The position numbers and the translations under genes were made by a program. The notes under the pieces were generated by a model. It saw nothing but the letters and a program-made list of their open reading frames with translations, was not told where the DNA came from and searched no databases. A DNA stretch of 64,000 nt, counting the filler. It is 4 parts of 4 records of this genome, joined end to end, with 100 filler letters (N's around TTAATTAATTAA, not from the genome) between each part and the next. Parts side by side here need not be neighbours in the genome. Positions count along the whole stretch, not along the records: positions 8,828 to 33,407 come from SRR31156797_14829; 3 more parts are not named here. One strand, given 5' to 3'. Below, one piece after another: positions 155-57,943 of the stretch (positions are counted from its first letter, which is position 1; each line of letters starts with the position of its first letter).

Positions 155-1180
155 GTGGAAAACCCTCTTGAAACAACAATTCTCCTTGTTGAATCAGATG
201 CAAAACTGCGTAAAAGTGAAGCTGCTTTACTTTCTGATATGGGATACAAGGAAATACTCCAGGCCGGAAACGGCACCGAAGCCTGGTCTGTTATAAAAAA
301 TTCCGATGTAGGATTCATTGTCTGCGCCTGGGAATTAAGGGAAATGAACGGCCTGGTGCTTCTTAAGGTCGTTCGGGCGGACATCGCCCATTCCATGATC
401 CCGTTTTTACTGGTTGTGGAAGAAGTGACCAAGGCCCAGGTTGTTGAAGCCGGACAGGCCGGGGTCACGGACATCATCCTGAGGCCATTCACCAAGGAAC
501 TGTTTCTTAAAAAAGTAAACCAGACCCTCAGCGCGGAAGACGACCCCCAAACCGCCGAAGCCAACCGGATGTACGATAACGGCCTAGAACTCATGAAACA
601 AGGCGATTACGAAGAAGCGCTGAAATCATTCAAGAGAATTCTCAATATCTACGAAACCGCCGAAGTCTATTACAACATGGGTTATATAAAAACCGCCCAA
701 GGCCGGTACGAGGAGGCAATTGTCGCCTTTCGCCGCGCCACCCAGATAAATAACGCCTTTGCCCAGGCCTTTCAAAAAATGGGCGAAGCCTATTCAAAAA
801 TCGGCCATTCAAAAGAAGCTCAAAAATGTTACGAACAAGCCGCTGAAATATTCATGGATAAAAACATGGACGATAATGCCGAAGCGGTTTACATGCAGGC
901 GTTGAAGGTAAATCCCGGCACGATAAACGTTTATAATTCATTGGGCATACTCTATCGACGCCAGGGCAAGCTGGGCGAATCCATTAAAATGTATCGCAAA
1001 GCACTGAAAGTCAGCCCTTTTGACGAAAATATCCACTACAACCTGGCCAGGGTGTACATGGCGGATAAAAAACTGGATAATGCAGCCGAAACATTAAGAG
1101 CGGCCATAAATCTCAATCCGGATTTTAAAGAGGCTGAAAATCTTCTGAAATCAATAGAAATGGGTAATGGATTAAAGTAA
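155..1180 (+). CDS. Receiver-like (REC) domain plus TPR repeat protein
   Basis: N-terminal CheY-like pattern (ILLVESD...EMNGLVLL...RPF) followed by multiple TPR motifs (AEVYYNMG, YNSLGILY, HYNLARVY). Confidence 0.85.
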   Translation: MENPLETTILLVESDAKLRKSEAALLSDMGYKEILQAGNGTEAWSVIKNSDVGFIVCAWELREMNGLVLLKVVRADIAHSMIPFLLVVEEVTKAQVVEAGQAGVTDIILRPFTKELFLKKVNQTLSAEDDPQTAEANRMYDNGLELMKQGDYEEALKSFKRILNIYETAEVYYNMGYIKTAQGRYEEAIVAFRRATQINNAFAQAFQKMGEAYSKIGHSKEAQKCYEQAAEIFMDKNMDDNAEAVYMQALKVNPGTINVYNSLGILYRRQGKLGESIKMYRKALKVSPFDENIHYNLARVYMADKKLDNAAETLRAAINLNPDFKEAENLLKSIEMGNGLK

Positions 1181-1250
1181 AAGCGGAATTACCCCATCCA
1201 GCCTTATGGGATTTTTACTGTAATAGCGCCCCAACATTCTTTAATTGAAT

Positions 1251-1274
1251 TAGGCGGCCCAGCGGAGCCGCCTA
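1251..1274. terminator. Hairpin between convergent genes, possible bidirectional terminator
   Basis: TAGGCGGC-N8-GCCGCCTA inverted repeat. Confidence 0.5.
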
Positions 1275-1279
1275 TTCCT

Positions 1280-1522
1280 CTACCAGTTCCTCTCCCCCAG
1301 GGAATCTATGCGCAACAAGCGTCTCCTGAATTCGGGGATGACGGATAATACCGTCAGCAATCCGAAAAGAGCAAACGTCAGGGCTATCAGATCCAATACA
1401 AAACCAGCGGTCTCAAAACTCACCAAGGCTAAATGCTGTTTGACTACGTTCATCCGCGCGGCCGCGATAAGCCAACTGCCGATAACAGCAAAAGAACCTC
1501 CGGTAATCAGTCTTCGATACAA
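1280..1522 (-). CDS. Small hypothetical membrane protein
   Basis: 80 aa with two hydrophobic segments. It fills the gap between neighbours and ends at the hairpin. Confidence 0.5.
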   Translation of the reverse strand: MYRRLITGGSFAVIGSWLIAAARMNVVKQHLALVSFETAGFVLDLIALTFALFGLLTVLSVIPEFRRRLLRIDSLGERNW

Positions 1523-1775
1523 CTTTATTAGTGATTTGTTCTTGTTAGCGGCTATTAGAGCGTCCTCCCCCTTATTGGGCTTGTTTCAGCCATCTTCAAA
1601 ATATGAAATAATATCTTATATTTTTGCCGGGTTGATGTCAAAACATTTGTTATGGAATAACAAGCATGACATAATTGAAGAACGACTTCCATTCATACTT
1701 CATGGCCCCGTTTGGCTTGACATTTCATCAGCCAGTGGTTAGCTTAACCACATTAATCTTGGGGGTTTATTTATA

Positions 1776-2378
1776 GTGTTGCCTCAATCAAGCAGCTTAC
1801 TGAACTCGCTGGCGTCGGTAATAGGGATACTACTTACCGTATATATGTGGATCGTGGTAATCAGGGCGGTTATTTCCTGGTTCAGCCCGCATCCTCATAA
1901 CCCCGTGGTGCAATTCCTGGCCAAAGTGACCGACCCGGTGCTCTACCATGTTCGCCGCATACTTCCCGTTACCTTCGGCGGTATAGATTTTTCACCTGTA
2001 ATCCTTATTCTGTTGATAGTCTTTGTTAATGATTTTATTGTGTTTTCACTAAAATACCTGGCAATGGGCATGCCTGCTTCAGGCATATTACCCATTTTTG
2101 CCATAAGCCTGTTCAGGCTTATACAGGGCGTCCTTTTCGCCTTTATGATCATACTTATCGTCAGGGCGGTCTTGTCCTGGATAAGTCCGGATCCCTACAA
2201 CCCGATAGTTCGCTTTGTTTACGGCGTAACCGAACCTCTTTTATACAAATTGCGAGGTCTTTTGCCTTTGGTTTTCGGCGGTATAGATTTCTCACCCCTG
2301 GTTTTGATCGCGGCCATCTATTTCCTTAACTCCCTGCTGGGCCGCCTTATGATGACGCTTGGGCAAGGTCTGGGTTGA
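1776..2378 (+). CDS. yggT: YggT family membrane protein (two YGGT repeats)
   Basis: Two copies of the RAVISW..P.P.NP.V......TDP/EP...GGIDFSP motif. Confidence 0.92.
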   Translation: MLPQSSSLLNSLASVIGILLTVYMWIVVIRAVISWFSPHPHNPVVQFLAKVTDPVLYHVRRILPVTFGGIDFSPVILILLIVFVNDFIVFSLKYLAMGMPASGILPIFAISLFRLIQGVLFAFMIILIVRAVLSWISPDPYNPIVRFVYGVTEPLLYKLRGLLPLVFGGIDFSPLVLIAAIYFLNSLLGRLMMTLGQGLG

Positions 2379-2417
2379 TCATGCCTGCTATAAAGTCAGG
2401 CCCCATGGGCTGGAAAA

Positions 2418-2711
2418 GTGCTTTCATGTCGAGATGACGGGGAAGGGACCATTATTAAGGTTCACCTGACCCCGAAAGCATCAAAAGAAGGATTGGCCGG
2501 CCTTTACGGAGACGCCTTGAAAATCAAAGTCAAGGCTCCGCCTGTTGACGGCAAGGCCAATAAAGCTTTGGTAAAATTCCTGGCCGGTCGTCTCGATATC
2601 AGTTCTTCCAGGGTGGAAATAATTGCCGGACAGACAAGCCGGGCCAAAACGGTTCGTATATCGGATATAACTTCCGAAGAAGTAATAAAACGCCTGGGCG
2701 TTGATTTATAG
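2418..2711 (+). CDS. yggU: DUF167/YggU family protein
   Basis: KVKAPPVDGKANKAL...GQTSRAK signature, in its usual position after yggT. Confidence 0.92.
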   Translation: MLSCRDDGEGTIIKVHLTPKASKEGLAGLYGDALKIKVKAPPVDGKANKALVKFLAGRLDISSSRVEIIAGQTSRAKTVRISDITSEEVIKRLGVDL

Positions 2712-2824
2712 GGCGCTCCCTCGCGGGAGCCTGTTCTCTTGACCCAATATACCGAAATCAATAATTATTAACCTACAGGACTTGATTGGGTATTGTTTGG
2801 CCTGACCAGATAACCGACTGCCTG

Positions 2825-3715
2825 ATGAAAACCTTGATCCTCTCTATTCTACTGCTTGCAGCGGCCGCCGTTGATGACGGGCGTAATATAACAATTATAG
2901 GCCAAAACCTTAATCGGGGCATGGCGGAGTATATAAGGAATCATACGCAAACCGAACTTAATAAACTTGAAAGTGATTTCGGACTGCTCGTTAACGGCCC
3001 TCTTGACATTATTATTGCCGGGACTCATAAAGAATTTAAAAGATCTGCGCCCCACGGCGCTGATATCCCGATTTGGGCCGCCGGAGTCGCTTATCCAAAG
3101 CTCAACCTTATAATCATTAATAAGGAACGAATAAAAGACAACAAGGAAATGGAACGCGTTCTGCGGCACGAGATCGCCCATGTCGCCCTTGGATCTATTT
3201 TTATTAATAAAAGGCCCCCTTTATGGTTAAATGAAGGCTTGACCATGCATCTGGCCGATGACTGGGGAATATCACGGCAGATCGCCATTGTCAGGGCCAT
3301 GGCTTCAGGCAGACTTATTCCTCTTGAACGGCTTGCGGCAGGTTTTCCCGAAAACAGCCTTGACGCCGAAACCGCTTATGCCCAGAGTTATTATTTCCTG
3401 GCCTTCCTGCGCGACCGTTTCGGCGGCAAAGTTGTCGGAAGATTGATAAAGCATCTCGCGGACGGCATTAATTCGAATATTGCGTTTTTTCATGTTACCG
3501 GGATGAATATCGAAGACCTGGAAGAAGATTTTAATAAATGGCTGTCATCGAGGTTTTCAATTTATTGGATAATTACCGGACCTTACGGGTTCTGGGTTCT
3601 GGCTGCCGCCCTATTGGCCGCCGCGGTTATAATAAAGAAAAGGGCTGCCGCCAAACAACTGGCTGCCTGGGAGGCTGAAAGCGATGAATCCGAGGGTGAT
3701 TCTTTCGGGGCTTGA
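2825..3715 (+). CDS. Peptidase MA-like zinc metallohydrolase with signal peptide and C-terminal TM anchor
   Basis: HEIAH (HExxH) followed by PLWLNEG and AYAQS. The ATG at 2825 gives a signal peptide. Confidence 0.85.
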   Translation: MKTLILSILLLAAAAVDDGRNITIIGQNLNRGMAEYIRNHTQTELNKLESDFGLLVNGPLDIIIAGTHKEFKRSAPHGADIPIWAAGVAYPKLNLIIINKERIKDNKEMERVLRHEIAHVALGSIFINKRPPLWLNEGLTMHLADDWGISRQIAIVRAMASGRLIPLERLAAGFPENSLDAETAYAQSYYFLAFLRDRFGGKVVGRLIKHLADGINSNIAFFHVTGMNIEDLEEDFNKWLSSRFSIYWIITGPYGFWVLAAALLAAAVIIKKRAAAKQLAAWEAESDESEGDSFGA

Positions 3716-8727: not shown

Positions 8728-8827
8728 NNNNNNNNNNNNNNNNNNNNNNNNNNNNNNNNNNNNNNNNNNNNTTAATTAATTAANNNNNNNNNNNNNNNNN
8801 NNNNNNNNNNNNNNNNNNNNNNNNNNN
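8728..8827. other. Artificial contig linker
   Basis: N44-TTAATTAATTAA-N44, with stops in all six frames. Confidence 0.99.
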
Positions 8828-19140: not shown

Positions 19141-20220
19141 TTAAATAATTGCGTTGAAAAGATAGCCCACCACAAGGATACCACAGCCGACAACTGCAAT
19201 AAAAATCGCAATAAGACGGGGCTTAAGTACCTTGCGCAGGATGACCATTTCCGGGAAAGACAACGCGATGACAGACATCATAAAGGCGAGGACCGTACCA
19301 AGGGCAGCCCCCTTGCCGAGCAGAGCTTCGACCACGGGAATGACTCCAGCAGCATTCGTGTACATGGGGATGCCCATAATCACGGAAAGCGGTACGGACC
19401 ACCACGCTTCATCACCCATAATACCGGCAAGCTGACCTTCGGGAACATAGCCATGAATGGCTGCACCAACAGCGATTCCGAGCACCACAAATTTCCAGAC
19501 CCGCCCCGTGATATCCTTGACCGAATCCAAGGCGTAATCAAAACGCCCGGTCCACGTCATCTTCTCATCCATAGCAGCTTCGCCAGCACGGATTTCCTTG
19601 ACCCAGTCCTCCACATGCCCCTCAAGATTCATGCGTCCGAGCACCCATCCAGCCACTACGGCAATGGTTATGCCTGTAACAAAATACAAGGCCGCAATCT
19701 TCCAACCAAGCAGGCCGTAAAGCAGGACCAATGCAATTTCATTGACCATGGGAGCGGCAATAAGAAAGGAAAAGGTCACTCCAAGCGGAATGCCTGCAGT
19801 CATGAACCCGATAAACAGCGGCACGGCTGAACAGGAACAAAACGGTGTGACTACGCCGAGCAGCGCGGCCATGACATTCCCTGCAGACTCCCGTTTTCCG
19901 GCCAAGAAACTCCGCGTCCAGTTAACGGTCACAAATGAGCGCAAGATGCCCACAAGAAAAACCACCAGCACCAAAAGCATCAAAACCTTGGGGGTATCAT
20001 AAACAAAGAACTGAATGGCCGCACCGAGATGGCTGCCCATATCCAACCCAAGCAGGGAATAGGCAAACCAATCGGAAAATGGGAGAAGTTGACTATAGAC
20101 ACCATACCAGACCATCAGTGCCAGACCGCTCATCAAAAGATACTTTGCAAGCCCTCTTCCCGAACCACCTTTACCGGAACCGGATTGACACTCGCATTGT
20201 GTAGTGTTGGATAAAGACAT
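19141..20220 (-). CDS. arsP: ArsP/DUF318 family permease
   Basis: TPFCSCS, PMVNEIA and ALSFPE motifs, downstream of arsR. Confidence 0.88.
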   Translation of the reverse strand: MSLSNTTQCECQSGSGKGGSGRGLAKYLLMSGLALMVWYGVYSQLLPFSDWFAYSLLGLDMGSHLGAAIQFFVYDTPKVLMLLVLVVFLVGILRSFVTVNWTRSFLAGKRESAGNVMAALLGVVTPFCSCSAVPLFIGFMTAGIPLGVTFSFLIAAPMVNEIALVLLYGLLGWKIAALYFVTGITIAVVAGWVLGRMNLEGHVEDWVKEIRAGEAAMDEKMTWTGRFDYALDSVKDITGRVWKFVVLGIAVGAAIHGYVPEGQLAGIMGDEAWWSVPLSVIMGIPMYTNAAGVIPVVEALLGKGAALGTVLAFMMSVIALSFPEMVILRKVLKPRLIAIFIAVVGCGILVVGYLFNAII

Positions 20221-20231
20221 ATTTCCCTCGC

Positions 20232-20247
20232 TTGGCGTTTTCGCCAA
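20232..20247. promoter_or_regulatory. Putative ArsR operator 2
   Basis: Palindrome TTGGCG-TTTT-CGCCAA just upstream of the arsP RBS. Confidence 0.7.
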
Positions 20248-20266
20248 ATGTTTGAACAAAAAAATA

Positions 20267-20569
20267 TTACTTACTTGCAGCCAGCACAGACTCAATGCAC
20301 TGGAAGAAATTAAGAACACACGGAACTTTCAGACGATAATAGACATTTTTGCCACGTTTTTCATCTTCCACAATCCCCACTTTCTTGAGCACAGTGAGGT
20401 GCTTGGACACCGTGGAAATATCCGCGCCCACCAAGTCACGCAGGTCACACACGCACCGCTCTCCCCGGGAGAGTTCGTCGATCATCATCAGCCGAGAGGG
20501 ATGCGCCATGGCCTTGACCACGTTGGCTCGCTCTTCAAACTGCTGTTGTGTGACTATGTCTTGTTTCAT
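20267..20569 (-). CDS. arsR: ArsR/SmtB transcriptional repressor
   Basis: KAMAHPSRL, ERCVCDL and STVSKHL motifs. Confidence 0.93.
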   Translation of the reverse strand: MKQDIVTQQQFEERANVVKAMAHPSRLMMIDELSRGERCVCDLRDLVGADISTVSKHLTVLKKVGIVEDEKRGKNVYYRLKVPCVLNFFQCIESVLAASK

Positions 20570-22862: not shown

Positions 22863-24083
22863 CTAACTCAAGGGAATGGCCGAGCCCTCGCCCAACGGTT
22901 CAATGCCAAGGTGTATGGCAACGGTCTGCCCCACATCCGCGAAGGTCTCACGCATGCCATCGGCTCCCGGCAGCACCTCCGGTCCAAACAGGAGCACCGG
23001 CACGCACTCGCGAGTATGATCGCTTCCTTGCCAAGTGGGATCACAACCATGATCCGCAGTAATAATCGCCAAATCACCGGGCCGAAGACGACTGGTCAAC
23101 CCAGACACTCGTTTATCGATTCGTTCCAATGCGGCGGCGTATCCGGTTACATTCCGGCGATGTCCCCATTCAGAATCGAACTCCACAAAATTCACAAAGG
23201 TAAGCGAACCATCCGGCGCATTCTCGACTTCATCTTCCAGCAAATCAAACAGGCCGTCTGAGTCCGGCGCCTTGACCTTTTTCGTCAGGCCTTGGTGTGC
23301 AAAAATATCGGCAATTTTACCCACGGAAACGACCTCTCGACCCGCGGCCTTGAGCTTATCAAGCAAAGTCTGAGACGGTGGTGGCAAAGAATAATCCCGA
23401 CGGTTGGCCGTTCGTTTAAACGCTCCCGGTTCCCCGATAAACGGACGGGCAATGACTCGCCCTATATTGTAACCTTCCAATAATTCTCGCACGAGTTCAC
23501 AGAGCGCGAACAATCGATCCAGCCCGAAGTGTTCTTCATGGGCCGCAATCTGAAAAACCGAATCAGCCGAGGTATAACAAATGGGTTTGCCTGACTGAAT
23601 ATGTTCTTCGCCAAGTCGGGCGATGATTTCCGTCCCCGATGCGTGACAGTTACCTAAAATTCCTGGCAAATTGCCCTTTTCAACAATCTCGGCAATTAAC
23701 GTTTCAGGGAAACTTGGATATTCAGGAGGGAAATAGCCCCATTCAAAGCGAACCGGCACCCCAGCCATTTCCCAATGACCGCTCGGGGTATCCTTGCCAA
23801 GACTTATTTCATTTGCCGCCGCGAACCGACCACGCAAAACCGGCGATGTCAGACCGGGAGGCACTGTCCCGGTCACCAGTTGGGCAGCCAGTCCAAGGCC
23901 GAGAGAGCTCAGGCATGGCAGATGCAACGGACCGGACCGAAGACCGTCCTGATCAGCCTCACCCCGTGCGCATTTTTCGGCAATATGCCCAAGTGTGTCG
24001 GCACCGGCATCACCAAAGCGGTCAGCGTCCGGCGCCCAGCCAATACCAAGGCTGTCCAGCACGAGAATAAACGCGCGTCCCAT
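22863..24083 (-). CDS. deoB: Phosphopentomutase
   Basis: [31 protein letters not shown] and TADHGCDP motifs. Confidence 0.96.
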
Positions 24084-25415
24084 CTATGCAACCCCTGTAA
24101 TACGCTCTGCCACCACAGGCCGATCTGCCGGACAATCCGGGCCAACCTGCACGGCTTCACGGATACGCTCCACCGCCATGTTAGCCTTTTCCTCATCGCG
24201 TGCGAACACTCTGCACATCGGGACATCAGGTCCGACCTTATCGCCAACATGAGCGAAATTCGTCATGCCCACACCGTAATCAATGAACTGATCCCCACGG
24301 ATACGCCCACCCTTCATGGCCACCAAAGTCATGCCCACAGCGCGATTGTCCATGGCCGTCACGAACCCGGCACTTTCCGGGTACACAGCCATCTCCACAG
24401 GAGCCACATCGAGATACTCCGCAGCCTTTTGCACGAAATCCACAGGACCACCCAACCCCTTTATCATTGTGCCAAAACAATCAGCTGCTGTGCCTGAATC
24501 AAGAGCCGCGTTCATTTTTATGGTGGCTTCGCCGATGTCCTTTGCCAGTCCGGCAAGAATCAGCATTTCACCAGTCAAGGCGAACACAATCTGCGTCAAT
24601 CTCGAATCGCGATATTCACCTGTCAAAAAATCCACGGCTTCCTGCATTTCCAGTGCATTGCCAATGCTATGACCCAGTACTTCATTCATATCCGTAAGCA
24701 AGGCCACTGTCGGCACACCTGCACCCGCGGCAACATGGGCGATGGATTCGGCAAGTGCTTTGGCATCCTCATATTTTTCCATGAACGCACCGGAACCATA
24801 TTTCACATCCATGACCAATCCCTGCAACCCCGCCGCCAATTTCTTGGACAGGATGGACGCCGTGATGAGGTCGATAGATTCCACGGTCGCTGTGACATCA
24901 CGAATGGAATACAGCCGCCTATCTGCGGGGGCGAGGTCCGAGGTCTGACCGATGATGGCACAGCCTGCTTCTCGCGTCACAGTGACAAAAGTCTCAAGGT
25001 CAGGAGTCGTATCATAGCCCGGAATAGCATCAAATTTATCGAGTGTACCGCCTGTATGTCCAAGGCCACGCCCGGAAATCATGGGAACAAATGCACCGCA
25101 TGCCGCAGCCAATGGACCGAGAATCAGACTGACTTTATCGCCCACGCCGCCCGTGGAATGTTTGTCCACCACCCCGGATTCAAAACCCAAACTCGGCCAA
25201 TCGATGACCGTGCCCGAATTTTTCATGGCGACAGTCAGGTCAATACGTTCCTGCATGGACATGCCTTGAAAAAACACGGCCATGGCAAATGCCGCCACTT
25301 GCCCTTCGGAGACGGATTCATCCGTAATGCCACGCACCATGGATTCGATGTCGGATTTATCAAGCGGATATCCGTCCCGTTTTTTGCGAATTATTTCTTG
25401 CGGTATAAATTTCAT
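24084..25415 (-). CDS. deoA: Thymidine phosphorylase
   Basis: DKHSTGGVGDK, SGRGLGHTGGTLDK and SILSKKLAAG motifs. Confidence 0.95.
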   Translation of the reverse strand: MKFIPQEIIRKKRDGYPLDKSDIESMVRGITDESVSEGQVAAFAMAVFFQGMSMQERIDLTVAMKNSGTVIDWPSLGFESGVVDKHSTGGVGDKVSLILGPLAAACGAFVPMISGRGLGHTGGTLDKFDAIPGYDTTPDLETFVTVTREAGCAIIGQTSDLAPADRRLYSIRDVTATVESIDLITASILSKKLAAGLQGLVMDVKYGSGAFMEKYEDAKALAESIAHVAAGAGVPTVALLTDMNEVLGHSIGNALEMQEAVDFLTGEYRDSRLTQIVFALTGEMLILAGLAKDIGEATIKMNAALDSGTAADCFGTMIKGLGGPVDFVQKAAEYLDVAPVEMAVYPESAGFVTAMDNRAVGMTLVAMKGGRIRGDQFIDYGVGMTNFAHVGDKVGPDVPMCRVFARDEEKANMAVERIREAVQVGPDCPADRPVVAERITGVA

Positions 25416-25420
25416 GGGGA

Positions 25421-25530
25421 GGCGCCTCCGGCGGCTAGGGAAAGGAAGACAAAAATCTCTGAAAAGGGTTCTTTTCTTCCCCCCCCATCCTTTTCCTCAA
25501 CTTTTTGTAGGGCGCATTTGCGCTGATTAG
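25421..25530. repeat. REP-like intergenic element beginning GCCTCCGGCGGC
   Basis: The core is shared with 17587-17596 and, in reverse, with 8846-8857. It has internal purine/pyrimidine inverted tracts. Confidence 0.5.
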
Positions 25531-25574
25531 ATAAGGGAGGGAGTTTGTTTTTTATTCGTTGTGTTGACGAGGTT

Positions 25575-26393
25575 TTAGTAGTCGTGTTTTTCGTTAGGGA
25601 CGCTGTTCAAGTTGAGTTCCTTAAGGACATCATTGAGGATGCCACTGGCTCCGAAACGAAGGGTTTGAGGAGTGGCCCAGCCCTGTCCCATGATCTGATC
25701 GGCAAGGTAGAGAAACCCAGCACTGTCTGACACGGTTTTGAGGCCGCCTGAAGGCTTGAAACCGAGGGGCCGGTTGGTATTGGGCTGCATTTCCTCAATG
25801 ACAGAAAGCATAACGGCAGCGACTTCAAGAGTTGCCCCACCCGGCACCTTACCGGTGGAAGTCTTGATGAAATCGGCACCAGCCTCGATAGCGGCTCGAC
25901 TAGCGGCTTCAATAATGCGTAAGGACTGGAGCTGGCTTGTTTCAAGGATGACCTTGAGTTTGACATCTTCACCACAAACCACACGGACCTGTTCGATCAA
26001 TGCACTGGCGGTGTCTTCGTCGCCGGACTTGAACCGTTTGTATGGCATGACCACATCCACTTCATGCACCCCCATATTGACCTGTTCTCTGGCCTCGGCA
26101 ACAGCCTTGGCCGCATCTGCTCCGCCATGAGGGAAATTGCAAACCGTAGCCACACGGACGCATGTGCCCTCCAGATCCTTGAGCGCAAGCGGGACAAATC
26201 TGTCATACACACAGACGGCAGCGACATGCCCTGCCGAGCACACAGCGCGAGAGCATAGATCTTTAATCGTGTCATCAGTGTCGTTTTCGCCCAAAGACGT
26301 CAGGTCCATTGAGGCAAGGGTTCGCAAAGCAAACTCTTCATTGGCCGCGATGTGTTGCGCCTCGGCCACCAATTTTTTCAATATGTCGTTCAT
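25575..26393 (-). CDS. deoC: Deoxyribose-phosphate aldolase
   Basis: DLTSL, ATVCNFP, KVILET, FIKTSTGK and RFGASG motifs. Confidence 0.95.
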   Translation of the reverse strand: MNDILKKLVAEAQHIAANEEFALRTLASMDLTSLGENDTDDTIKDLCSRAVCSAGHVAAVCVYDRFVPLALKDLEGTCVRVATVCNFPHGGADAAKAVAEAREQVNMGVHEVDVVMPYKRFKSGDEDTASALIEQVRVVCGEDVKLKVILETSQLQSLRIIEAASRAAIEAGADFIKTSTGKVPGGATLEVAAVMLSVIEEMQPNTNRPLGFKPSGGLKTVSDSAGFLYLADQIMGQGWATPQTLRFGASGILNDVLKELNLNSVPNEKHDY

Positions 26394-26395
26394 TT

Positions 26396-26848
26396 TTATT
26401 TTTTGTTGAGGTTTCCCGGCCCGAAAGAATGGGGCAGCAATTCATCCAAAGTCATGGTCAAAAGTACACGCTCGCTGTTGCAGGAATAAGCAATGGTGTC
26501 CGGGGTGGAAAATTCACGTATGCGCTGACGACAACCGCCGCACGGCGTACAAACGTCCCGGGACGGCCCAACAATCACGATCTCACGAATGACGCGACCA
26601 CCACCGCGCACCATAGCGCTTATGGCTGACTGTTCAGCGCAACAGCCTAGCGGATAAGCCGCGTTTTCAACATTGCAGCCAGTGTATATATCGCCCGTAT
26701 CCGTTACCAGAGCAACGCCCACTGGATGATTGGAATACGGAGCATATGCCATATCGCGAGCCTCGGTCGCCAATCGAATGAGTTCTTTGATATCAGGCAA
26801 TAGACCACTCCTTGACTTAGGGATGTCAGCGGCTTGTGATACTGCCAC
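26396..26848 (-). CDS. cdd: Cytidine deaminase (homotetrameric type)
   Basis: AYAPYS, GCNVENAAY, CAE and PCGGCRQ motifs. Confidence 0.95.
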   Translation of the reverse strand: MAVSQAADIPKSRSGLLPDIKELIRLATEARDMAYAPYSNHPVGVALVTDTGDIYTGCNVENAAYPLGCCAEQSAISAMVRGGGRVIREIVIVGPSRDVCTPCGGCRQRIREFSTPDTIAYSCNSERVLLTMTLDELLPHSFGPGNLNKK

Positions 26849-27015: not shown

Positions 27016-27816
27016 CTAATTAAACATGTCGCTAATGGCGTCACGAAGGCCGGACTTTATTTCATCCTTGGTAGCTTCCTTGGCATCGTACCCGATATCC
27101 TTGGCGTCATTTTCCAACCCCATGTCTCCACCGGATTGTTGCTGAGCCGGAGGCTGCTGCATTTGCACCTGTTGGGAATTCGCCGGAAGCTTATAATATG
27201 CAGAATCAAGGTTTCGAATGGTCAGGCTGGTCAACCGCATGTCATTGCCAGAACGTAATAGGCCACCGTAGCCCATCTTTTTGGCCTCTTCCATGGAATC
27301 GTCAAAGGAATCACCCATGCTCTGCGTCAGGGCTTCGGCAATGGCAATCCATCCCTCGGAAAGCTTCTTGATGTTCGAATGGTTACTCAAAACCATTTCT
27401 TCACGGCTGGTAATCTTACCATCCTCATAAACTTTGGCCTCGTACACCGTGCCCTTATATCCGGCCACGGTTTCGGTCCTGCCGGTCTTTTCGTACCGAA
27501 CATCATATTCTGTTTCGGCAGCCTCATCGTCACCACCAAACATAGAGGAAAAACCACTTGCCATGCCCGCCATCTGGCCCATGTCCATGACATTGCATGC
27601 TCCGCTCTCATCACAAGTCACGGAATACACCTTCCCGCCCGACAACAACATGTAGGAAGTTGGCGACGTATCCATCCGTACATGATGAGCATCACGAGTC
27701 ACCAATGTGATCATTGACCCGTCAGAATACGTATACGTGGCTACAATGTCAGACGCAGCCTGCGCACACACAGGCATGACCAGAAAGACACACAAACAAA
27801 ACAAAAATTTACGCAT
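27016..27816 (-). CDS. Exported protein, DUF4412-like
   Basis: Signal peptide, KTGRTETVAGYKG motif and a GAGGAG RBS. Confidence 0.7.
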   Translation of the reverse strand: MRKFLFCLCVFLVMPVCAQAASDIVATYTYSDGSMITLVTRDAHHVRMDTSPTSYMLLSGGKVYSVTCDESGACNVMDMGQMAGMASGFSSMFGGDDEAAETEYDVRYEKTGRTETVAGYKGTVYEAKVYEDGKITSREEMVLSNHSNIKKLSEGWIAIAEALTQSMGDSFDDSMEEAKKMGYGGLLRSGNDMRLTSLTIRNLDSAYYKLPANSQQVQMQQPPAQQQSGGDMGLENDAKDIGYDAKEATKDEIKSGLRDAISDMFN

Positions 27817-27921
27817 GGAACTCCTCCTCAAGTATATCCCCGATTGGTGCTTGCACCCCGATTTAATCACGATCCAGTAACTGTACATTAATCATAAAAC
27901 CCATTTCATTTCAAACACACA

Positions 27922-27956
27922 AAAAAAGGCTTGCAACGACATGTTGCAAGCCTTTT
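27922..27956 (-). terminator. Rho-independent terminator ending the nhaB operon
   Basis: AAAAGGCTTGCAAC-GACAT-GTTGCAAGCCTTTT. Confidence 0.85.
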
Positions 27957-27980: not shown

Positions 27981-29405
27981 CTATCTGCTCCCTACAACAA
28001 TTGCAGGAAACATTGCTTCCTCTTCGCCTGCCAAATACGGCTGGAACAAATTGTAGGAAACACTCTGTGTTCTTTGCGCATGTCCTCGTGTGTGCCTTTC
28101 TCCATCATAGTACGCGCCGTTTTCTAACAATATGTGCTCAATACGCTCTCGGAATCCTTCGATGAAGGCACCACCATCTCCCTTGAAACTCAAATTTCCC
28201 AGTCGAATAACTCGACGTTTGGAAAATTCTTCCAAACTCATTGAATGGACTTCAAGGTCCGCCTGAGTTCGAATATATCCCCAAACAAGAACATTATCGG
28301 GAATATCAATTGGCTCCTTGGCATCAATAATGGTGTGCGGCATGACAATGGTCCCGGCTCCCACGGTAATCCGGCTCCACTTCTCCCCATGCAGGAAGGA
28401 ATTAAAACCGACAAAAACTTTGTTCCCGAGTTTTGTGTAGGTAAGCTTGCCACCATGGGCGATGACATCGAGACCCTCAAGTTGAGAATCAATGATAAAA
28501 CAATTTTCCTGAGCATTGGACCCGTGGCCGAGCTTCGCGTTCTCAAGATATGCCCGCTGTGCGACCAACGAATTATCCCCTAGAAAACTCGAACCTTTAA
28601 CCACGGCATATCGACTCAAAAAGGCATTGTCCGGCACCGGCACGGGGCTTTCGAACGCCAAGGAATCGTACATCGGCAGGAAATCACTTCGGCGTCCTTT
28701 AAGGAAATCCGAAAAAAGCCCGGTTAACTGCCCTTCATCATCATAAGTCACGAACCGATCAATAATCGATGGGTCATGCGCATAGTCAAATTCGAATTCG
28801 CCCTGCTTCCGTATCCAGACGCGCCCGGACCGGATTGTCTTGCGCGAAAGGTCTCCAGCCTGAACATAGGCGAAATCCCCTAAAATACAGTTGTGCAAAA
28901 CGGAAAGATCAGCCGTGGAAAAAGCTCCGAGATACGCACCTTCCGTGGTTGTTCCATGGATATTGGAATAATGCATGGCCACGGTGTTGAGTATACGAAA
29001 ATACTCAGGAATTTCCGAATTTCGGGAATGATTATGTACCAACGTCTTGATAAGGAAACTGTTGACTACCTGAATAATTTCATCCTGATAGAGTTCAGTT
29101 TCCATACCGTTAAAACACGCGACCGCCCCTTTGGGCTTGAGTTCATCGCCGCGAATGTCGCTCATAAGAACAACAGAACGGTCGACTTCGCATTTTCCAA
29201 GAAAATACGTCCCCCCCAAATTACTTTCCTGAAAACGGAAGTACCAGGGATGATCAATAGAAAGGGCATAATAGGCGTAGTACTTGGTCAATTTATCAGT
29301 CCGAATGGACCGACGAACCGCGTTTTCTACATCCCGACCAATGGGTTTCAGATTAACATTCACCCGTGAGATGATATGATCGATCAATCGTGAGATGCTT
29401 TTCAT
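27981..29405 (-). CDS. Uncharacterised left-handed beta-helix (hexapeptide repeat, gamma-carbonic-anhydrase/acyltransferase-like) protein
   Basis: Isoleucine-patch repeats (LGDNSLVAQRA, LGNKVFVGFNSFL, VGAGTIVMPHTII), several His residues and an AGGAGAG RBS. Confidence 0.75.
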   Translation of the reverse strand: MKSISRLIDHIISRVNVNLKPIGRDVENAVRRSIRTDKLTKYYAYYALSIDHPWYFRFQESNLGGTYFLGKCEVDRSVVLMSDIRGDELKPKGAVACFNGMETELYQDEIIQVVNSFLIKTLVHNHSRNSEIPEYFRILNTVAMHYSNIHGTTTEGAYLGAFSTADLSVLHNCILGDFAYVQAGDLSRKTIRSGRVWIRKQGEFEFDYAHDPSIIDRFVTYDDEGQLTGLFSDFLKGRRSDFLPMYDSLAFESPVPVPDNAFLSRYAVVKGSSFLGDNSLVAQRAYLENAKLGHGSNAQENCFIIDSQLEGLDVIAHGGKLTYTKLGNKVFVGFNSFLHGEKWSRITVGAGTIVMPHTIIDAKEPIDIPDNVLVWGYIRTQADLEVHSMSLEEFSKRRVIRLGNLSFKGDGGAFIEGFRERIEHILLENGAYYDGERHTRGHAQRTQSVSYNLFQPYLAGEEEAMFPAIVVGSR

Positions 29406-29459
29406 AATTCTCTCCTTTCCCTGAACATTCGGGGGCGGCCCCGCGCTATTAAACGATTA

Positions 29460-31082
29460 TTACAACAGGTAATACACGGCAGCCAGACCTGTCAGGGACA
29501 TCGTAATGGTATACGGCAAAGCAAGGACAACCATGCGTCCGTACGACAGACGAATGACTGGTGCAAGTGCGCTTGTCAGCAGGAACAAAAATGCAGCCTG
29601 ACCGTTCGGTGTGGCGACAGACGGGATGTTCGTACCGGTATTGATGGCTACAGCCAACTTGTCGAAGTGCAGCATGATATCCCGCACCTGAGTGGCGGCA
29701 GCGGCAGGCAGACCGGCTATAACATCGGCTCTGACCAGACTTGCATCCGTCAACTTCTCCATCAAAGCCTGACCACTCATCCCGATACCGGGAACCGCGT
29801 TCAGCAGGTTGATGAAGTGCAACTTAGTTTCGGAGATATATACCGTTGCCACAAACACGTTATCCGAAATGGCGGAAAGCAGACCGTTCGCTCCATAGTA
29901 AGCCACTAACTGGCTCTGTCCCTTCATGCTCAAGACGTAGCCGAGGATAGGTGCAAACAAATGCTGCGAATGAATAACGCCGACAATGGCGAAAAACACA
30001 ACCAACAGGGCAGTGAAAGGCAAAGCTTCTTCAAAAGCCTGTCCCAGCTGACTTTCTTCAACAACACCTGTCATGGAAGTCAAAAGGACAATCACAGACA
30101 GACCAACCAGTCCAACCGCTGCCAAATGAAGTGCAAGCGCCGTAATGAGCCAAATACCGATTAAGGCCTGAATGACCAGCTTAACCTTACCGCGCTGTCC
30201 CTGTTCTGCTTCCATACGAATGGCGGTCTCCAGCAGGAACGAACGGATGTTACCCGGCAACTGTGCTCCGTAGCCAAACAGATGAAACTGTTCCACGGCA
30301 AGACAGGTCAGTAGTCCAGCCACAAGAACGGGCATGGACACAGGCATAACCTTGATAAAAAACGGAACAAAATGCCAACCCATCTCATGAGCAATCAAAA
30401 GGTTCTGAGGCTCACCCACCAACGTGCAGACACCGCCCAAAGCCGTACCAACTGCACCGTGCATCATCAAATTCCGCAAAAAGCCACGGAACTCCAACAG
30501 TTCTTCACGGTCCTTCTGCTTAACCGAATCATCGGAGATCAGATTATGGGAATCTCCGCTCCCCTTGCCGGAAGCAAAGCGATGGTAAACACTGTAAAAA
30601 CCATACGCCACAGCAATGATGACTGCGGTAACGGTCAGCGCATCCAAAAAAGCGGATAAAAAGGCTCCAGCCAGACAAAACAGCAAGGAGATGGCCTTTT
30701 TGGAACGCACCCTCACGAGAATTCGAGTGAAGGTGAACTGCAAAAAGTCCTTCATGAAGTGAATACCTGCGACCATGAAGATCAGCAGCAGGATGACCTC
30801 GAAGTTCTTGTGAGCCTCGTGATACACAACTTCTGCGGAAGTCAGTCCCATGGCAACGGCTTCGATAGCCAAAAGTCCACCAGCAGGCAGCGGGTAGCAT
30901 TTCAAGGCCATGGTCAGGGTGAAAATAAATTCTGCAATAAGCAACCAACCGGCCACAAATGGTCCGGCAGTGATCATGATAATCGGGTTGCAGACAAGGC
31001 AGGCAATGATGGTGAGCTTGTACCACACCGGGGCATTGCCGAGGAACATGTTGACGAAAGTCCGTGCTAAAGGCTGGGCCAT
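29460..31082 (-). CDS. nhaB: NhaB-family Na+/H+ antiporter with a C-terminal loop insertion
   Basis: [39 protein letters not shown] and [22 protein letters not shown] motifs. Confidence 0.95.
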
Positions 31083-31182
31083 TTCATTCTCCAGTAACGC
31101 TGTAGATTATCCATACAGATCTGAAAAAAACAGGAAACTGTCACACGGGGCAGCGACCTTAGTCTTCAGATCGTCTCTAAAC

Positions 31183-31210
31183 AAAAGGGCCACATCCGTG
31201 GATGTGGCCC
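31183..31210 (-). terminator. Riboswitch expression-platform terminator
   Basis: On the minus strand: GGGCCACATC-CACG-GATGTGGCCC-TTTT, between the aptamer and the nhaB start. Confidence 0.88.
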
Positions 31211-31246
31211 ATGAAATTCAAACGCACCACCACCATGATTCACACG

Positions 31247-31295
31247 GCAGAAGTCATCAGCTCATCAAGCGGTTCAAGGGGAACCTCATCCCCTG
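31247..31295 (-). ncRNA. Fluoride riboswitch (crcB motif) aptamer
   Basis: The minus strand reads GGGGATGAGGTTCCCC-TTG-AACCGC-TTGATGA-GCTGATGACTTCTGC, matching the consensus GGCGAUGGAGUUCGCC..AACCGC..GCUGAUGACUCCU. Confidence 0.92.
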
Positions 31296-31467
31296 TGCGG
31301 ATTGTGGTCTAGGCCCATCATTCCCGAAAGTCAAGAAAGAGCCTCTCGATATTCCAGGGATTCTCCAACAAGAACCAATGATATCAGCCCCAAAATCCCC
31401 CCTCAAAGGGGGATAGACCATTCATAAAGTTGGTGTTAAAGGGATGCTCTTCAACTCCAAAGGAGAG

Positions 31468-31997: not shown

Positions 31998-33407
31998 ATG
32001 CTTAACAATTTAAAACTCGGTATCAAACTCAGCTTAGGATTCGGACTCGTCCTGCTTTTAACAGCGTTGGTCGCCGTCATCGGAATCAATGGAATGCAGA
32101 ACGTACAGGATCGCGTTGACAAGGCGGATGATGTTAATCGACTTGTTCGTTTCATGCTTGAAACTCGCATTCAAGAAAAAAACTTCATGCTCAACCAAAC
32201 TGCAGAAGCGGTCGAAAAACACGCCGATACTCTTAAAAAAATCGTAGCTCAAACACAAACAACAAGTGCAAAATTCTCTCATCAAATCAACAAGAATCAA
32301 ATGGCACAGGTCATCAAAGGCGGTGAGAAATATGGAAAGGCGTTTGCGACATATTTAAAACTTGAAGAAAATAAAACCATAGCCATAAAGGAAATGGGAG
32401 CTGCGGTTCAAACAGTTTTTAACGAGACCGATGAACTACGTATTGAACAACAAAAACAGCTTGCTCAACTTATCAACACAGGTACCACATCTCCTGCAGT
32501 TCTTGAAGACAAGCTCATAAAGACAAATCAAGCCAATTCAATAATTAGAAGTTTTTATGACGCTCGCATGAGCGCTAAGGACTTCCTCACCAGCCGTAGT
32601 GACACAGACCTAAAACAATGCAATGACACCTTAAAATTGATCCTTGAAGAAATTGCGGCACTCAAGACTCGCTTCAAGGACCGCAACAATATTCGTCAAA
32701 TCGGCGAAGTCGAAGACGCCTTACAGGTTTATCTCAAAGGACTCGACGTTGTAGCAACATACATTAAACAGCAAGGACAAGCTGAAAAAGACATGATCTC
32801 CGCCGCCCGTAACGCGGATGAAATCTGCCGAGCAGCTCGTGCTGATCAAAAAGCAAAAATGCTCGACGATATCCACAGTGCGAACATCACGAGCATCATT
32901 ACTGCAGCAACTGCACTCATCCTCGGCATTCTGGCTGCCTTCTTCCTTACTAAAGCCATCACAAAGCCCATATCCATGGGTGTCAGCTTTGCAAAAAACA
33001 TGTCCGAAGGAGACTTTACAAATACACTGGACATAAACCAGAAAGACGAAGTTGGCATGTTGGCAAAAGCCTTGAATGACATGGTCACTAAACTGCGGGC
33101 TGTCGTTGCGGACGTTGAAATCGCTACCAACAATGTCGCTACGGGGAGCGAAGAATTGTCTGCATCTTCAGAGACTCTTTCACAAGGAGCGACTGAACAG
33201 GCTGCCTCAATTGAAGAAGTCTCTTCTTCCATGGAACAAATGGCTTCCAACATCAGCCAAAATGCAGAAAATGCCACGGAAACAGAAACCCTTGCAACCA
33301 AGGCAGCCGCTGATGCCAAGGAAAGCGGTTCCGCAGTCAATCAAACTGTTAATGCAATGAAAAGCATTGCTGAAAAGATTTCCATCATTGAGGAAATCGC
33401 CCGCCAG
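31998..33407 (+). CDS. Methyl-accepting chemotaxis protein, truncated by contig end
   Basis: Two TM helices, a helical periplasmic domain, HAMP, and QAASIEEVSSSMEQ...IEEIARQ. Confidence 0.93.
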
Positions 33408-33507
33408 NNNNNNNNNNNNNNNNNNNNNNNNNNNNNNNNNNNNNNNNNNNNTTAATTAATTAANNNNNNNNNNNNNNNNNNNNNNNNNNNNNNNNNNNNN
33501 NNNNNNN
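33408..33507. other. Artificial contig linker
   Basis: N44-TTAATTAATTAA-N44. Confidence 0.99.
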
Positions 33508-57843: not shown

Positions 57844-57943
57844 NNNNNNNNNNNNNNNNNNNNNNNNNNNNNNNNNNNNNNNNNNNNTTAATTAATTAAN
57901 NNNNNNNNNNNNNNNNNNNNNNNNNNNNNNNNNNNNNNNNNNN
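57844..57943. other. Artificial contig linker
   Basis: N44-TTAATTAATTAA-N44. Confidence 0.99.

What the first reader, a model, noticed from the sequence alone, without database searches (positions are those of the whole stretch)
27981..31334. Fluoride riboswitch drives nhaB plus an uncharacterised beta-helix protein: candidate non-Fluc/CLC fluoride-resistance module
Seen in sequence: a canonical fluoride aptamer (31247-31295, minus strand), an intrinsic terminator (31183-31210), nhaB, a 474-aa LbH gene 54 nt downstream and a closing terminator. A TTGACT -35-like box lies at 31329-31334. No crcB/fluc or eriC(F) gene occurs on this contig. Established: these riboswitches switch genes on in response to F-, most often Fluc and CLC(F) exporters, and Na+/H+ antiporter genes are among the reported but mechanistically unexplained associations. 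Inference: this NhaB either exports F- or counters HF-driven acidification, with the LbH protein as a dedicated partner.
Basis: partly seen in the sequence, partly recalled or inferred. Interest (0 to 1): 0.85.

Follow-up and report, generated by a model that had tools for sequence, protein, structure and literature searches.

The report
Fluoride riboswitch controlling NhaB–LbH operon
A genuine fluoride-sensing RNA switch sits in front of a sodium/proton antiporter gene and an orphan beta-helix protein gene, but this is an add-on to ordinary fluoride channels rather than a replacement, and the beta-helix protein is a general companion of ion-transporter genes in these sulfate reducers.

Summary
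Rfam's fluoride riboswitch model hits window 31241-31302 (-) at 54.6 bits against a threshold of 34. It is followed by a strong terminator, nhaB (540 aa), a 54-nt spacer, a 474-aa LbH gene and a closing terminator.

The window has no crcB or CLC gene. However, the nearest held genome (both proteins 100% identical) has two crcB genes, one with its own fluoride riboswitch, and crcB occurs in 41 of 42 genomes of the genus. So this is an accessory module, not a Fluc-free system.

The LbH protein belongs to the family of PDB 3C8V, which has a solved structure but no known function. It is not fluoride-specific. Across Desulfovibrionaceae it sits in a riboswitch-less cluster, CBS–DASS transporter–LbH–NhaB. 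The riboswitch operon combines the genus's usually solo B-type nhaB with a second LbH paralog.

An intact riboswitch was found in only four sequences. It is eroded in two sister species.

The most likely function is fluoride-induced Na+/H+ and pH homeostasis. Riboswitch-linked Na+/H+ antiporters are already known as a class. The LbH link and the conserved cluster are the new parts.

The parts
31329..31334 (-). -35-like box TTGACT of the likely promoter. A weak -10-like TAGACC follows 17 nt downstream at 31306-31311.
   Evidence: Read. The block is invariant in five aligned leaders. The consensus scan did not list it. It is a promoter by inference only.
31241..31302 (-). Fluoride riboswitch aptamer (crcB motif, RF01734).
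   Evidence: 54.6 bits against gathering score 34, full-length model match. No difference from G001 in this stretch.
31230..31250 (-). Linker hairpin between aptamer and terminator. Its 5' arm abuts the 3' strand of the pseudoknot.
   Evidence: Present in the minimum-free-energy folds. The sequence is conserved in five leaders but shows no covariation. Its role in the switch is inferred.
31177..31210 (-). Intrinsic terminator of the expression platform: stem 31187-31210 plus the U tract.
   Evidence: -20.7 kcal/mol. One compensatory A-U to G-C change in G170 and one G-U change in L142 keep the stem paired.
29460..31082 (-). nhaB, Na+/H+ antiporter NhaB, 540 aa, 'B-type' paralog.
   Evidence: PF06450 712 bits and NF007093 803 bits against cut-off 640. 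It groups with the genus-wide solo nhaB clade. 13 DNA differences from G001 and no residue change.
29406..29459 (-). 54-nt spacer with a GGAGA ribosome-binding site and no terminator.
27981..29405 (-). LbH protein of the 3C8V / Hexapep_loop family, 474 aa, 'type-A' paralog.
   Evidence: PF18776 40.9 bits against cut-off 31.5. PDB 3C8V E 1.7e-140. Model TM-score 0.91-0.94 to 3C8V. It keeps all 59 invariant family columns. 6 DNA differences from G001 and no residue change.
27924..27956 (.). Bidirectional terminator closing the operon.

Best explanation
This is a fluoride-inducible two-gene operon. A promoter with a TTGACT -35 box drives a leader that holds a canonical fluoride aptamer, a short linker hairpin and a strong intrinsic terminator. 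Without fluoride, transcription stops at 31177-31210. With fluoride bound, it reads through into nhaB and the LbH gene, which share one transcript and end at the terminator at 27924-27956.

The cargo is not a fluoride exporter. It is an ordinary NhaB Na+/H+ antiporter plus a second paralog of a beta-helix protein. In this bacterial family, that beta-helix protein normally sits in a riboswitch-less ion-transport cluster: CBS protein, DASS transporter, LbH, NhaB.

The lineage also has Fluc (crcB) channels. So the operon most likely acts beside Fluc. It would adjust proton and sodium balance when HF entry loads the cytoplasm with H+ and F-, for example by trading membrane potential for a smaller pH gradient, which lowers weak-acid trapping of fluoride.

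The LbH protein most likely serves the transporter as a cytoplasmic accessory enzyme or regulator. Its chemistry is unknown.

Shown here: the anatomy, the family memberships, the presence of Fluc in relatives, the gene-neighbourhood pattern and the evolutionary origin. Inferred: induction by fluoride, co-transcription, the physiological role, and any LbH-NhaB cooperation.
For: Switch and operon anatomy.

Leader conservation: promoter box, aptamer, linker and terminator are conserved in five leaders, with one compensatory pair in the terminator.

Genes maintained: the window and G001 differ at 25 positions plus one gap in 4,038 nt. Nineteen fall in the two genes without changing a residue, and none falls in the aptamer or terminator.

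Fluc present in the lineage: G001 has 2 crcB genes, one behind a 52.6-bit riboswitch. crcB occurs in 41 of 42 genomes of the genus.

NhaB is orthodox: it passes the equivalog cut-off and lies in a clade of 30 B-type rows with support 98.

LbH is a transport-cluster protein:
- DASS lies directly upstream on the same strand in 20 of 20 loci from other genera and 25 of 25 type-C loci of the genus.
- NhaB lies directly downstream in 11 of 20 and 24 of 25 of those loci.
- MgtE lies upstream in 12 of 17 type-A-like loci of genus g8.

Literature: Na+/H+ antiporters are described as the next most common riboswitch-associated class after exporters (PMC11139923, passages). The weak-acid accumulation idea is from PMC4144673 (search listing and abstract start only).
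Against: There is no expression data. No RNA run is listed for this DNA, so induction and co-transcription are untested.

The terminator does not overlap the aptamer; it starts about 30 nt downstream. Folding gave no convincing antiterminator, and the one candidate helix is not conserved in G160. The relay from aptamer to terminator is therefore unresolved.

Bacterial NhaB normally imports H+ (established knowledge, recalled). That fits 'reduce the pH gradient' but not the review's 'counteract acidification', so the direction of benefit is uncertain.

The aptamer is eroded in two sister species that keep the operon (G170 at 24.5 bits, G187 no match). Fluoride control is therefore dispensable or short-lived.

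The window's own genome is not held. Fluc in this organism is inferred from relatives.

Outside Desulfovibrionaceae, the LbH gene is next to a transporter in only a minority of loci. Of 72 metagenomic loci with enough upstream sequence, 21 have DASS, 2 NhaB, 2 a P-type ATPase and 9 a CBS gene. Ten have response regulators and the rest are varied.
Confidence: 0.65

Rival explanations
1. One reading: NhaB, alone or with the LbH protein, is itself a fluoride or HF export system that replaces Fluc and CLC-F.
For: No crcB or CLC gene in the 64-kb window. In G160, the only riboswitch over threshold is the one before nhaB.
Against: crcB occurs in 41 of 42 genomes of the genus and in all six genomes close to the window that were checked. 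G001 has a second, riboswitch-controlled crcB. This NhaB passes the NhaB equivalog cut-off and groups with riboswitch-less orthologs at 77-81% identity. None of the 15 orthologous nhaB loci given to Rfam has a fluoride riboswitch.
Confidence: 0.05
2. Back-up copy model. Fluoride inhibits the housekeeping DASS-LbH-NhaB function or another sodium pump. The riboswitch then turns on spare paralogs of the affected parts, as it does for enolase and pyrophosphatase in other bacteria.
For: Both genes are paralogs of riboswitch-less copies in the same genome. G001 has the pair at 1.92 Mb and a third nhaB. The LbH family has five invariant histidines and other invariant polar residues, consistent with a metal or ligand site that fluoride might attack. 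Extra copies of fluoride-inhibited enzymes under riboswitch control are documented in Enterobacter cloacae FRM (PMC5533749, passages) and stated in PMC9646797 (passages).
Against: There is no evidence that LbH or NhaB is fluoride-sensitive. The riboswitch-linked nhaB is the genus's ordinary B-type ortholog, not an extra copy: G001 has no other B-type gene.
Confidence: 0.2
3. The LbH protein is a non-canonical gamma-carbonic-anhydrase-like enzyme. It would speed CO2/bicarbonate buffering next to proton-moving transporters, forming a bacterial 'transport metabolon' that supports pH control under HF stress.
For: The only weak sequence and fold relatives outside the family are gamma-carbonic anhydrases, CcmM and the gamma-CA subunits of complex I (TMt 0.5-0.64 for one LbH domain). 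The family has an N-x-Q-E-N motif like the gamma-CA N-x-Q-D-N and an RGD motif.
Against: In the alignment to 1V3W, only one of the three zinc-ligand histidines is kept (H317). The other two positions are I304 (invariant) and T322 (ligand positions recalled, not from a call). Matches are at single-domain level only.
Confidence: 0.1
4. The riboswitch in the window is a decaying relic and the operon is effectively regulated in another way, or is silent.
For: Aptamers in sister species G170 and G187 carry core substitutions while the terminator persists.
Against: The window's aptamer matches the full model at 54.6 bits. It is identical in G001, and G160 (51.5 bits) and L142 (43.1 bits) also score over threshold. 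No substitution separates the window from G001 in the aptamer or the terminator, while 25 substitutions and one gap lie elsewhere in the 4,038 nt.
Confidence: 0.05

Closest known systems
Fluoride riboswitch (crcB motif, RF01734) regulons that include Na+/H+ antiporter genes
   Same: Same aptamer family, same ON logic with an intrinsic terminator, and a cargo class already reported as the second most common after exporters (PMC11139923, passages).
   Different: The cargo is NhaB specifically, plus an orphan LbH gene. No paper in the searched library holds both 'fluoride riboswitch' and 'NhaB' in this sense: one search found one paper, and it does not link them. The terminator does not overlap the aptamer, unlike many representatives (PMC2864571, passages). 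Baker et al. 2012, the primary gene list, is not held, and supplements are closed, so an nhaB entry there cannot be excluded.
NhaB Na+/H+ antiporter (PF06450; NCBIfam NF007093)
   Same: Full-length match over the equivalog cut-off, with conserved core residues shared with diverse NhaBs.
   Different: 540 aa against a 515-position profile. The Pfam match is split into two stretches with extra residues after about position 423. It scores below the older TIGR00774 cut-off (694.5 against 826.1). It is riboswitch-controlled and followed by LbH.
PDB 3C8V, 'putative acetyltransferase' YP_390128.1 of Desulfovibrio desulfuricans G20
   Same: Full-length homolog: E 1.7e-140 and about 45% identity, with the predicted model superposing at TM 0.91-0.94. 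Same Hexapep_loop signature.
   Different: No function is attached to 3C8V. The two papers that mention it are protein-design papers (search listing only). The window's copy is a distinct paralog (type A) under riboswitch control.
Gamma-class carbonic anhydrases, CcmM and the gamma-CA subunits of complex I
   Same: Left-handed beta-helix fold and partial motif resemblance. Some members are attached to membrane complexes.
   Different: Two of the three zinc ligands are not aligned. This protein has two beta-helical regions plus helical N- and C-terminal parts in 474 aa. Similarity is at domain level only.
Enterobacter cloacae FRM fluoride operon (ppaC-uspA-eno-gpmA-crcB-orf5249)
   Same: A fluoride riboswitch turns on a multi-gene operon of helper functions besides export (PMC5533749, passages).
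   Different: That operon includes crcB and enzymes known to be inhibited by fluoride. This one has neither.

Membership tests
Fluoride riboswitch RF01734 | Covariance-model score at or above the gathering threshold over the full model | tested here: met
   54.6 bits against 34, model positions 1-64 of 64.
Fluoride riboswitch RF01734 | P1 and P3 stems and the pseudoknot between the P1 loop and the 3' tail | tested here: met
   The cmscan alignment shows P1 with 4 pairs and P3 with 3 pairs, with no non-canonical pair flagged. GAGGU in the P1 loop can pair with ACUUC in the 3' tail; this was read from the sequence, with the pseudoknot geometry recalled from the solved structure.
Fluoride riboswitch RF01734 | Binds fluoride and raises expression of the downstream gene | not testable with these tools
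   No RNA run is listed for this DNA. Binding and termination assays are needed.
NhaB Na+/H+ antiporter | Full-length match over a curated family cut-off | tested here: met
   NF007093 803 bits against 640; PF06450 712 bits against 27.
NhaB Na+/H+ antiporter | TIGR00774 equivalog cut-off | tested here: not met
   694.5 bits against 826.1. The match is split by extra residues near position 423.
NhaB Na+/H+ antiporter | Electrogenic Na+/H+ exchange | not testable with these tools
   Needs vesicle or proteoliposome assays.
   The window has none and its own assembly is not held. G001 has 2 crcB genes. crcB occurs in 41 of 42 genomes of the genus.
3C8V / Hexapep_loop (PF18776) family | Pfam cut-off and full-length homology to the solved structure | tested here: met
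   40.9 bits against 31.5. E 1.7e-140 over residues 3-471. TM 0.91-0.94.
Hexapeptide acyltransferases (PF00132) | Family cut-off, plus a catalytic histidine and an acyl-CoA site | tested here: not met
   PF00132 scores 21.4 bits against 27. Acyltransferase structures match only at low TM (0.11-0.26 by query). CoA binding was not testable.
Gamma-class carbonic anhydrase | Three zinc-ligand histidines | tested here: not met
   In the alignment to 1V3W, only H317 aligns with a ligand; the other two positions are I304 and T322. The ligand numbering of 1V3W is recalled, not from a call.

The most novel reading that the evidence does not exclude
The 3C8V-family beta-helix protein is an unrecognised cytoplasmic partner of secondary ion transporters (DASS, NhaB, MgtE). 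It could be a regulator, or a non-canonical proton- or bicarbonate-handling enzyme. The fluoride-inducible NhaB-LbH pair would then be a dedicated device that reshapes the pH gradient to keep fluoride out, acting beside Fluc.
Probability: 0.15. Interest if true: 0.7.

Novelty: new variant of a known kind. Interest (0 to 1): 0.4.

Why it matters
Fluoride riboswitches mark genes that help cells survive fluoride, and the role of the Na+/H+ antiporters among them is still explained only loosely.

This locus offers a clean test case with two genes, one switch and natural controls: sister species with eroded aptamers, and riboswitch-less paralogs in the same genome.

It also gives a first functional handle on an orphan protein family. 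That family has a crystal structure, more than 2,000 members and 59 invariant positions, and it sits inside a conserved but undescribed CBS-DASS-LbH-NhaB cluster in marine sulfate reducers. Sodium-coupled anion uptake and sodium recycling are central to the energy budget of these organisms.

The finding does not reveal a new kind of fluoride exporter.

Tried and rejected
- Own genome: search of the window's own assembly failed because it is not held. G001 and relatives were used instead.
- Complex prediction, NhaB 10-540 with LbH 3-471: no verdict. The score was 0.00, the alignments were not used and the controls were not run. It counts neither for nor against binding.
- The look-up of sequencing runs: no RNA holder listed.
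- Read laying of X1 and X2 on G001's riboswitch-crcB locus: one 3,858-nt contig covers locus positions 783-3342 with no difference. The runs hold about 0.9-1.2 million contigs and look mixed, so the contig cannot be assigned to the window's organism.
- Antiterminator search by constrained and truncated folding: only weak helices. The best candidate (GUGGU with GCCAC) is not conserved in G160, so it was rejected.
- 'LbH always follows a transporter gene': true in Desulfovibrionaceae but rejected as a general rule after the metagenome survey.
- Distant genome loci: 0 of 15 have nhaB within about 6 kb.
- The protein-atlas search: returned only the same family, with weak leads to gamma-CA and DUF4954.
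- The search of earlier findings: nothing.
- Literature: Baker et al. 2012 is not held. Searches for PF18776, Hexapep_loop or YP_390128 and for hexapeptide + NhaB + Desulfovibrio found no paper. The sulfate-transporter genomics paper PMC5840216 has no occurrence of 'hexapeptide', 'CBS', 'transferase' or 'neighborhood'.
- Other riboswitches: none was found before orthologous nhaB genes, 0 of 15 loci at E up to 0.1.
Full report
OBSERVATION

Rfam's fluoride riboswitch model (RF01734) matches window 31241-31302 on the minus strand at 54.6 bits (gathering score 34, E 2.3e-12, full model). It is the only Rfam match over threshold in the window.

Downstream lie the following features:
- A 10-bp, G+C-rich hairpin at 31210-31187 followed by TTTTGTTT. 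It folds at -20.7 kcal/mol on its own.
- nhaB at 29460-31082, 540 aa. It scores 712 bits against PF06450 and 803 bits against the NCBIfam NhaB equivalog, cut-off 640.
- A 54-nt spacer with a GGAGA ribosome-binding site.
- A 474-aa left-handed beta-helix (LbH) gene at 27981-29405.
- A bidirectional terminator at 27924-27956.

TTGACT lies at 31334-31329. The window holds no crcB or CLC gene detectable by tblastn (best E 2.2).

IS THE ORGANISM WITHOUT FLUC?

The window's own assembly is not held. The nearest held genome, G001, is syntenic with the window at 96% DNA identity over 13.4 kb and at 99.4% across the operon. Its NhaB and LbH proteins are 100% identical to the window's.

G001 has two fluoride riboswitches. 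One lies before nhaB. The other (52.6 bits) lies about 100 nt before a crcB gene, which Pfam confirms. G001 also has a further crcB elsewhere.

crcB is present in 41 of 42 genomes of the genus. The one miss is a genome that is 81% complete. The 'non-Fluc' framing is therefore very unlikely to hold for the whole genome. The operon is an accessory to Fluc.

HOW COMMON IS THE ARRANGEMENT?

In a sample of 151 Desulfovibrionaceae genomes, 19 had a riboswitch match, giving 21 loci. I classified the first recognisable downstream gene by tblastn with Pfam-verified queries:
- MFS transporter: 8 loci, plus one where it is the second gene
- CrcB: 5
- AAA ATPase: 2
- CLC: 1
- Radical-SAM protein: 1
- NhaB: 1 (G001)
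- Unclassified: 2

In the genus, only G001 and G160 have riboswitch matches over threshold, 2 of 42 genomes.

The same leader is recognisable in G170 and G187, but there the aptamer has core substitutions. P3 is broken and the GCUGAUGA motif is altered. G170 scores 24.5 bits and G187 gives no match.

A metagenomic contig, L142, whose LbH is 86% identical, has an intact riboswitch at 43.1 bits before nhaB-LbH.

So the intact arrangement is seen in four sequences: the window, G001, G160 and L142. It is eroding in two sister species. None of 15 orthologous nhaB loci from other species has any riboswitch family at E up to 0.1. I gave that of the 26 available loci because of a size limit.

THE LbH PROTEIN

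It has more than 2,000 relatives of about 473 aa (2,191 at E up to 0.001), mostly in Thermodesulfobacteriota. It is a full-length homolog of PDB 3C8V, a structural-genomics 'putative acetyltransferase' of Desulfovibrio desulfuricans G20 (E 1.7e-140).

A model built from 49 family members (pLDDT 88.8) superposes on 3C8V at TM 0.91-0.94. Nothing else matches beyond single-domain level: gamma-carbonic anhydrases give TMt 0.5-0.64, and GlmU/LpxA-type acyltransferases score lower.

The family has 59 invariant columns. They include an RGDELK motif, N297/Q299/E300 and five histidines. This suggests a conserved ligand or metal site.

It is not a canonical gamma-carbonic anhydrase. Only one of three zinc-ligand positions aligns (ligand numbering recalled). 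It does not reach the hexapeptide-transferase cut-off. No paper on its function was found.

GENE NEIGHBOURHOOD

In the genus, 29 of 30 LbH loci have nhaB adjacent on the same strand. In 24 of them the order is LbH then nhaB. All 25 such 'type-C' loci, including the one that lacks nhaB, have a DASS-type transporter gene (Na_sulph_symp/CitMHS) directly upstream of LbH.

In 20 further loci from other genera of the family:
- DASS is directly upstream in 20 of 20.
- A CBS-domain gene lies before DASS in 17 of 20.
- nhaB is directly downstream in 11 of 20.
- A dCache histidine kinase is directly downstream in 3 of 20.

The conserved unit is therefore CBS-DASS-LbH-(NhaB), without any riboswitch. G001 itself carries this housekeeping cluster at 1.92 Mb, plus a third nhaB.

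The riboswitch operon is of a different, rarer 'type A': nhaB then LbH, with no DASS. It is seen in 5 of 42 genomes of the genus, plus the window, L142 and L143.

Outside the family the neighbourhood is looser. Of 72 metagenomic loci with at least 600 nt upstream:
- 19 have DASS within 400 nt, and 2 more have it at 429 nt.
- 9 have CBS.
- 2 have NhaB.
- 10 have response-regulator genes.
- 4 have a divergent TauE-like gene.
- 2 have a P-type cation ATPase, 2 enolase and 2 a PEP-utilising enzyme.
- The rest are singletons.

None of 15 distant genome loci has nhaB within about 6 kb. The LbH gene is thus a transport-cluster gene in Desulfovibrionaceae, but not universally.

ORIGIN

In a quick IQ-TREE tree of 63 LbH sequences, the riboswitch-linked LbHs form a clade with support 100. 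That clade joins G171 and the 17 LbHs of genus g8 in a 23-row clade with SH-aLRT support 99. In g8 the upstream gene is MgtE in 12 of 17 loci. This clade is separate from the 25 type-C LbHs.

In a FastTree tree of 54 NhaB sequences, the riboswitch-linked NhaB lies in the 'B-type' clade (support 98, 30 rows). That clade occurs about once per genome and lacks an adjacent LbH everywhere except the window's clade and G171.

The operon is therefore a recombined pair: the ordinary B-type nhaB plus the second LbH paralog, with a riboswitch leader added in one small clade.

Between the window and G001, the 19 substitutions inside the two genes change no residue. None of the 26 differences falls in the aptamer or terminator. 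This is consistent with purifying selection on all parts.

MECHANISM

The ON-switch logic, in which fluoride-stabilised aptamer folding prevents termination, follows from the family's established behaviour and the strong terminator. One compensatory pair in G170 and one G-U change in L142 support the terminator stem.

The relay is unresolved. The terminator starts about 30 nt after the aptamer, and a conserved hairpin lies in between. Folding did not yield a conserved antiterminator.

For the cargo, I favour an ion and pH homeostasis role beside Fluc. The review literature states that Na+/H+ antiporters are the next most common riboswitch-associated class and ties them to pH homeostasis under weak-acid accumulation (PMC11139923, passages).

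Bacterial NhaB imports protons (recalled). The more consistent version is therefore that it lowers the pH gradient and so lowers fluoride trapping. This is inference.

The LbH protein probably assists the transporter as an enzyme or regulator. Rival roles, as a back-up copy of a fluoride-sensitive function or as a gamma-CA-like buffering enzyme, remain open.

VERDICT

The claim of a Fluc-independent resistance module is not supported. The locus is a new variant of a known kind: a fluoride riboswitch controlling an Na+/H+ antiporter.

Two points are new. One is the co-regulated 3C8V-family protein. The other is the conserved CBS-DASS-LbH-NhaB cluster, which I did not find described in the library searched.

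Noticed in passing
L072 (G170) about 1280-1340 and L071 (G187) about 3280-3340; alignments A1 and A4: Two sister species keep the promoter box, linker hairpin, terminator and nhaB-LbH operon, but their aptamers carry core substitutions. P3 is broken and the GCUGAUGA and GAUG motifs are changed. G170 scores 24.5 bits and G187 gives no match. This is either decay of fluoride control or a changed specificity.
   Followed up: partly
L122-L141 and L044-L068; for example L123 1309-6554: A conserved same-strand cluster runs CBS-domain protein, DASS (Na_sulph_symp/CitMHS) transporter, LbH, NhaB across several Desulfovibrionaceae genera. The DASS protein is 67-74% identical even to a distant metagenome-assembled genome. 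A dCache histidine kinase replaces NhaB in some loci, and sigma-54 response regulators flank LbH in metagenomic loci. The paper on sulfate transporters of sulfate reducers that I read does not mention it.
   Followed up: partly
L104, L106-L112, L114, L115, L117, L118 (genus g8): The LbH paralog closest to the riboswitch-linked one lies directly after an MgtE magnesium transporter gene (MgtE_N, CBS and MgtE domains) in 12 of 17 loci. In two others it lies beside a divergent MOT1-type molybdate transporter gene, and in L155 as well.
   Followed up: partly
L005, L006, L010, L011, L013, L017, L019, L020, L023; L007, L018; L016: In the Desulfovibrionaceae sample, the commonest gene after a fluoride riboswitch is an MFS transporter (8 of 21 loci, plus one where it is the second gene), ahead of crcB (5). 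Two loci have an AAA ATPase and one a radical-SAM/SPASM protein. In L010 and L013 the MFS match is in two pieces, so the gene may be broken.
   Followed up: partly
window 31083-31176: The 5' UTR between the leader terminator and the nhaB start holds two blocks that are nearly invariant in five species (around TGCCCCGTGTGACAG and GATAATCTACAGCG). This is more conserved than expected for a plain spacer and may be a second regulatory element.
   Followed up: no
window 29460-31082 (NhaB residues about 424-470): The NhaB match to Pfam and to diverse relatives is split in two, with extra residues after about position 423. The protein has 540 aa against a 515-position profile.
   Followed up: no
window 8728-8827, 33408-33507, 57844-57943: There are three pairs of 44-base N runs, which are masked stretches. 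The one at 33408-33507 lies at the 3' end of the methyl-accepting chemotaxis-like gene (31998-33455, plus strand) that diverges from the riboswitch promoter.
   Followed up: no
window 22863-26848 (-) and 19141-20319 (-): Downstream on the same strand, after the closing terminator and a 290-aa protein with no Pfam match (27016-27888), lies a nucleoside-catabolism set: cytidine deaminase, DeoC aldolase, pyrimidine-nucleoside phosphorylase and a phosphopentomutase-like metalloenzyme. Further on is an ArsP-type permease.
   Followed up: no
G001:C1:3022310-3022819 (L002, L004): The riboswitch-crcB unit was found only in G001 among the 42 genomes of the genus; all others have a single crcB with no riboswitch match over threshold. 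It may be a recent acquisition. Its aptamer is 83% identical to the nhaB one over 58 nt.
   Followed up: partly
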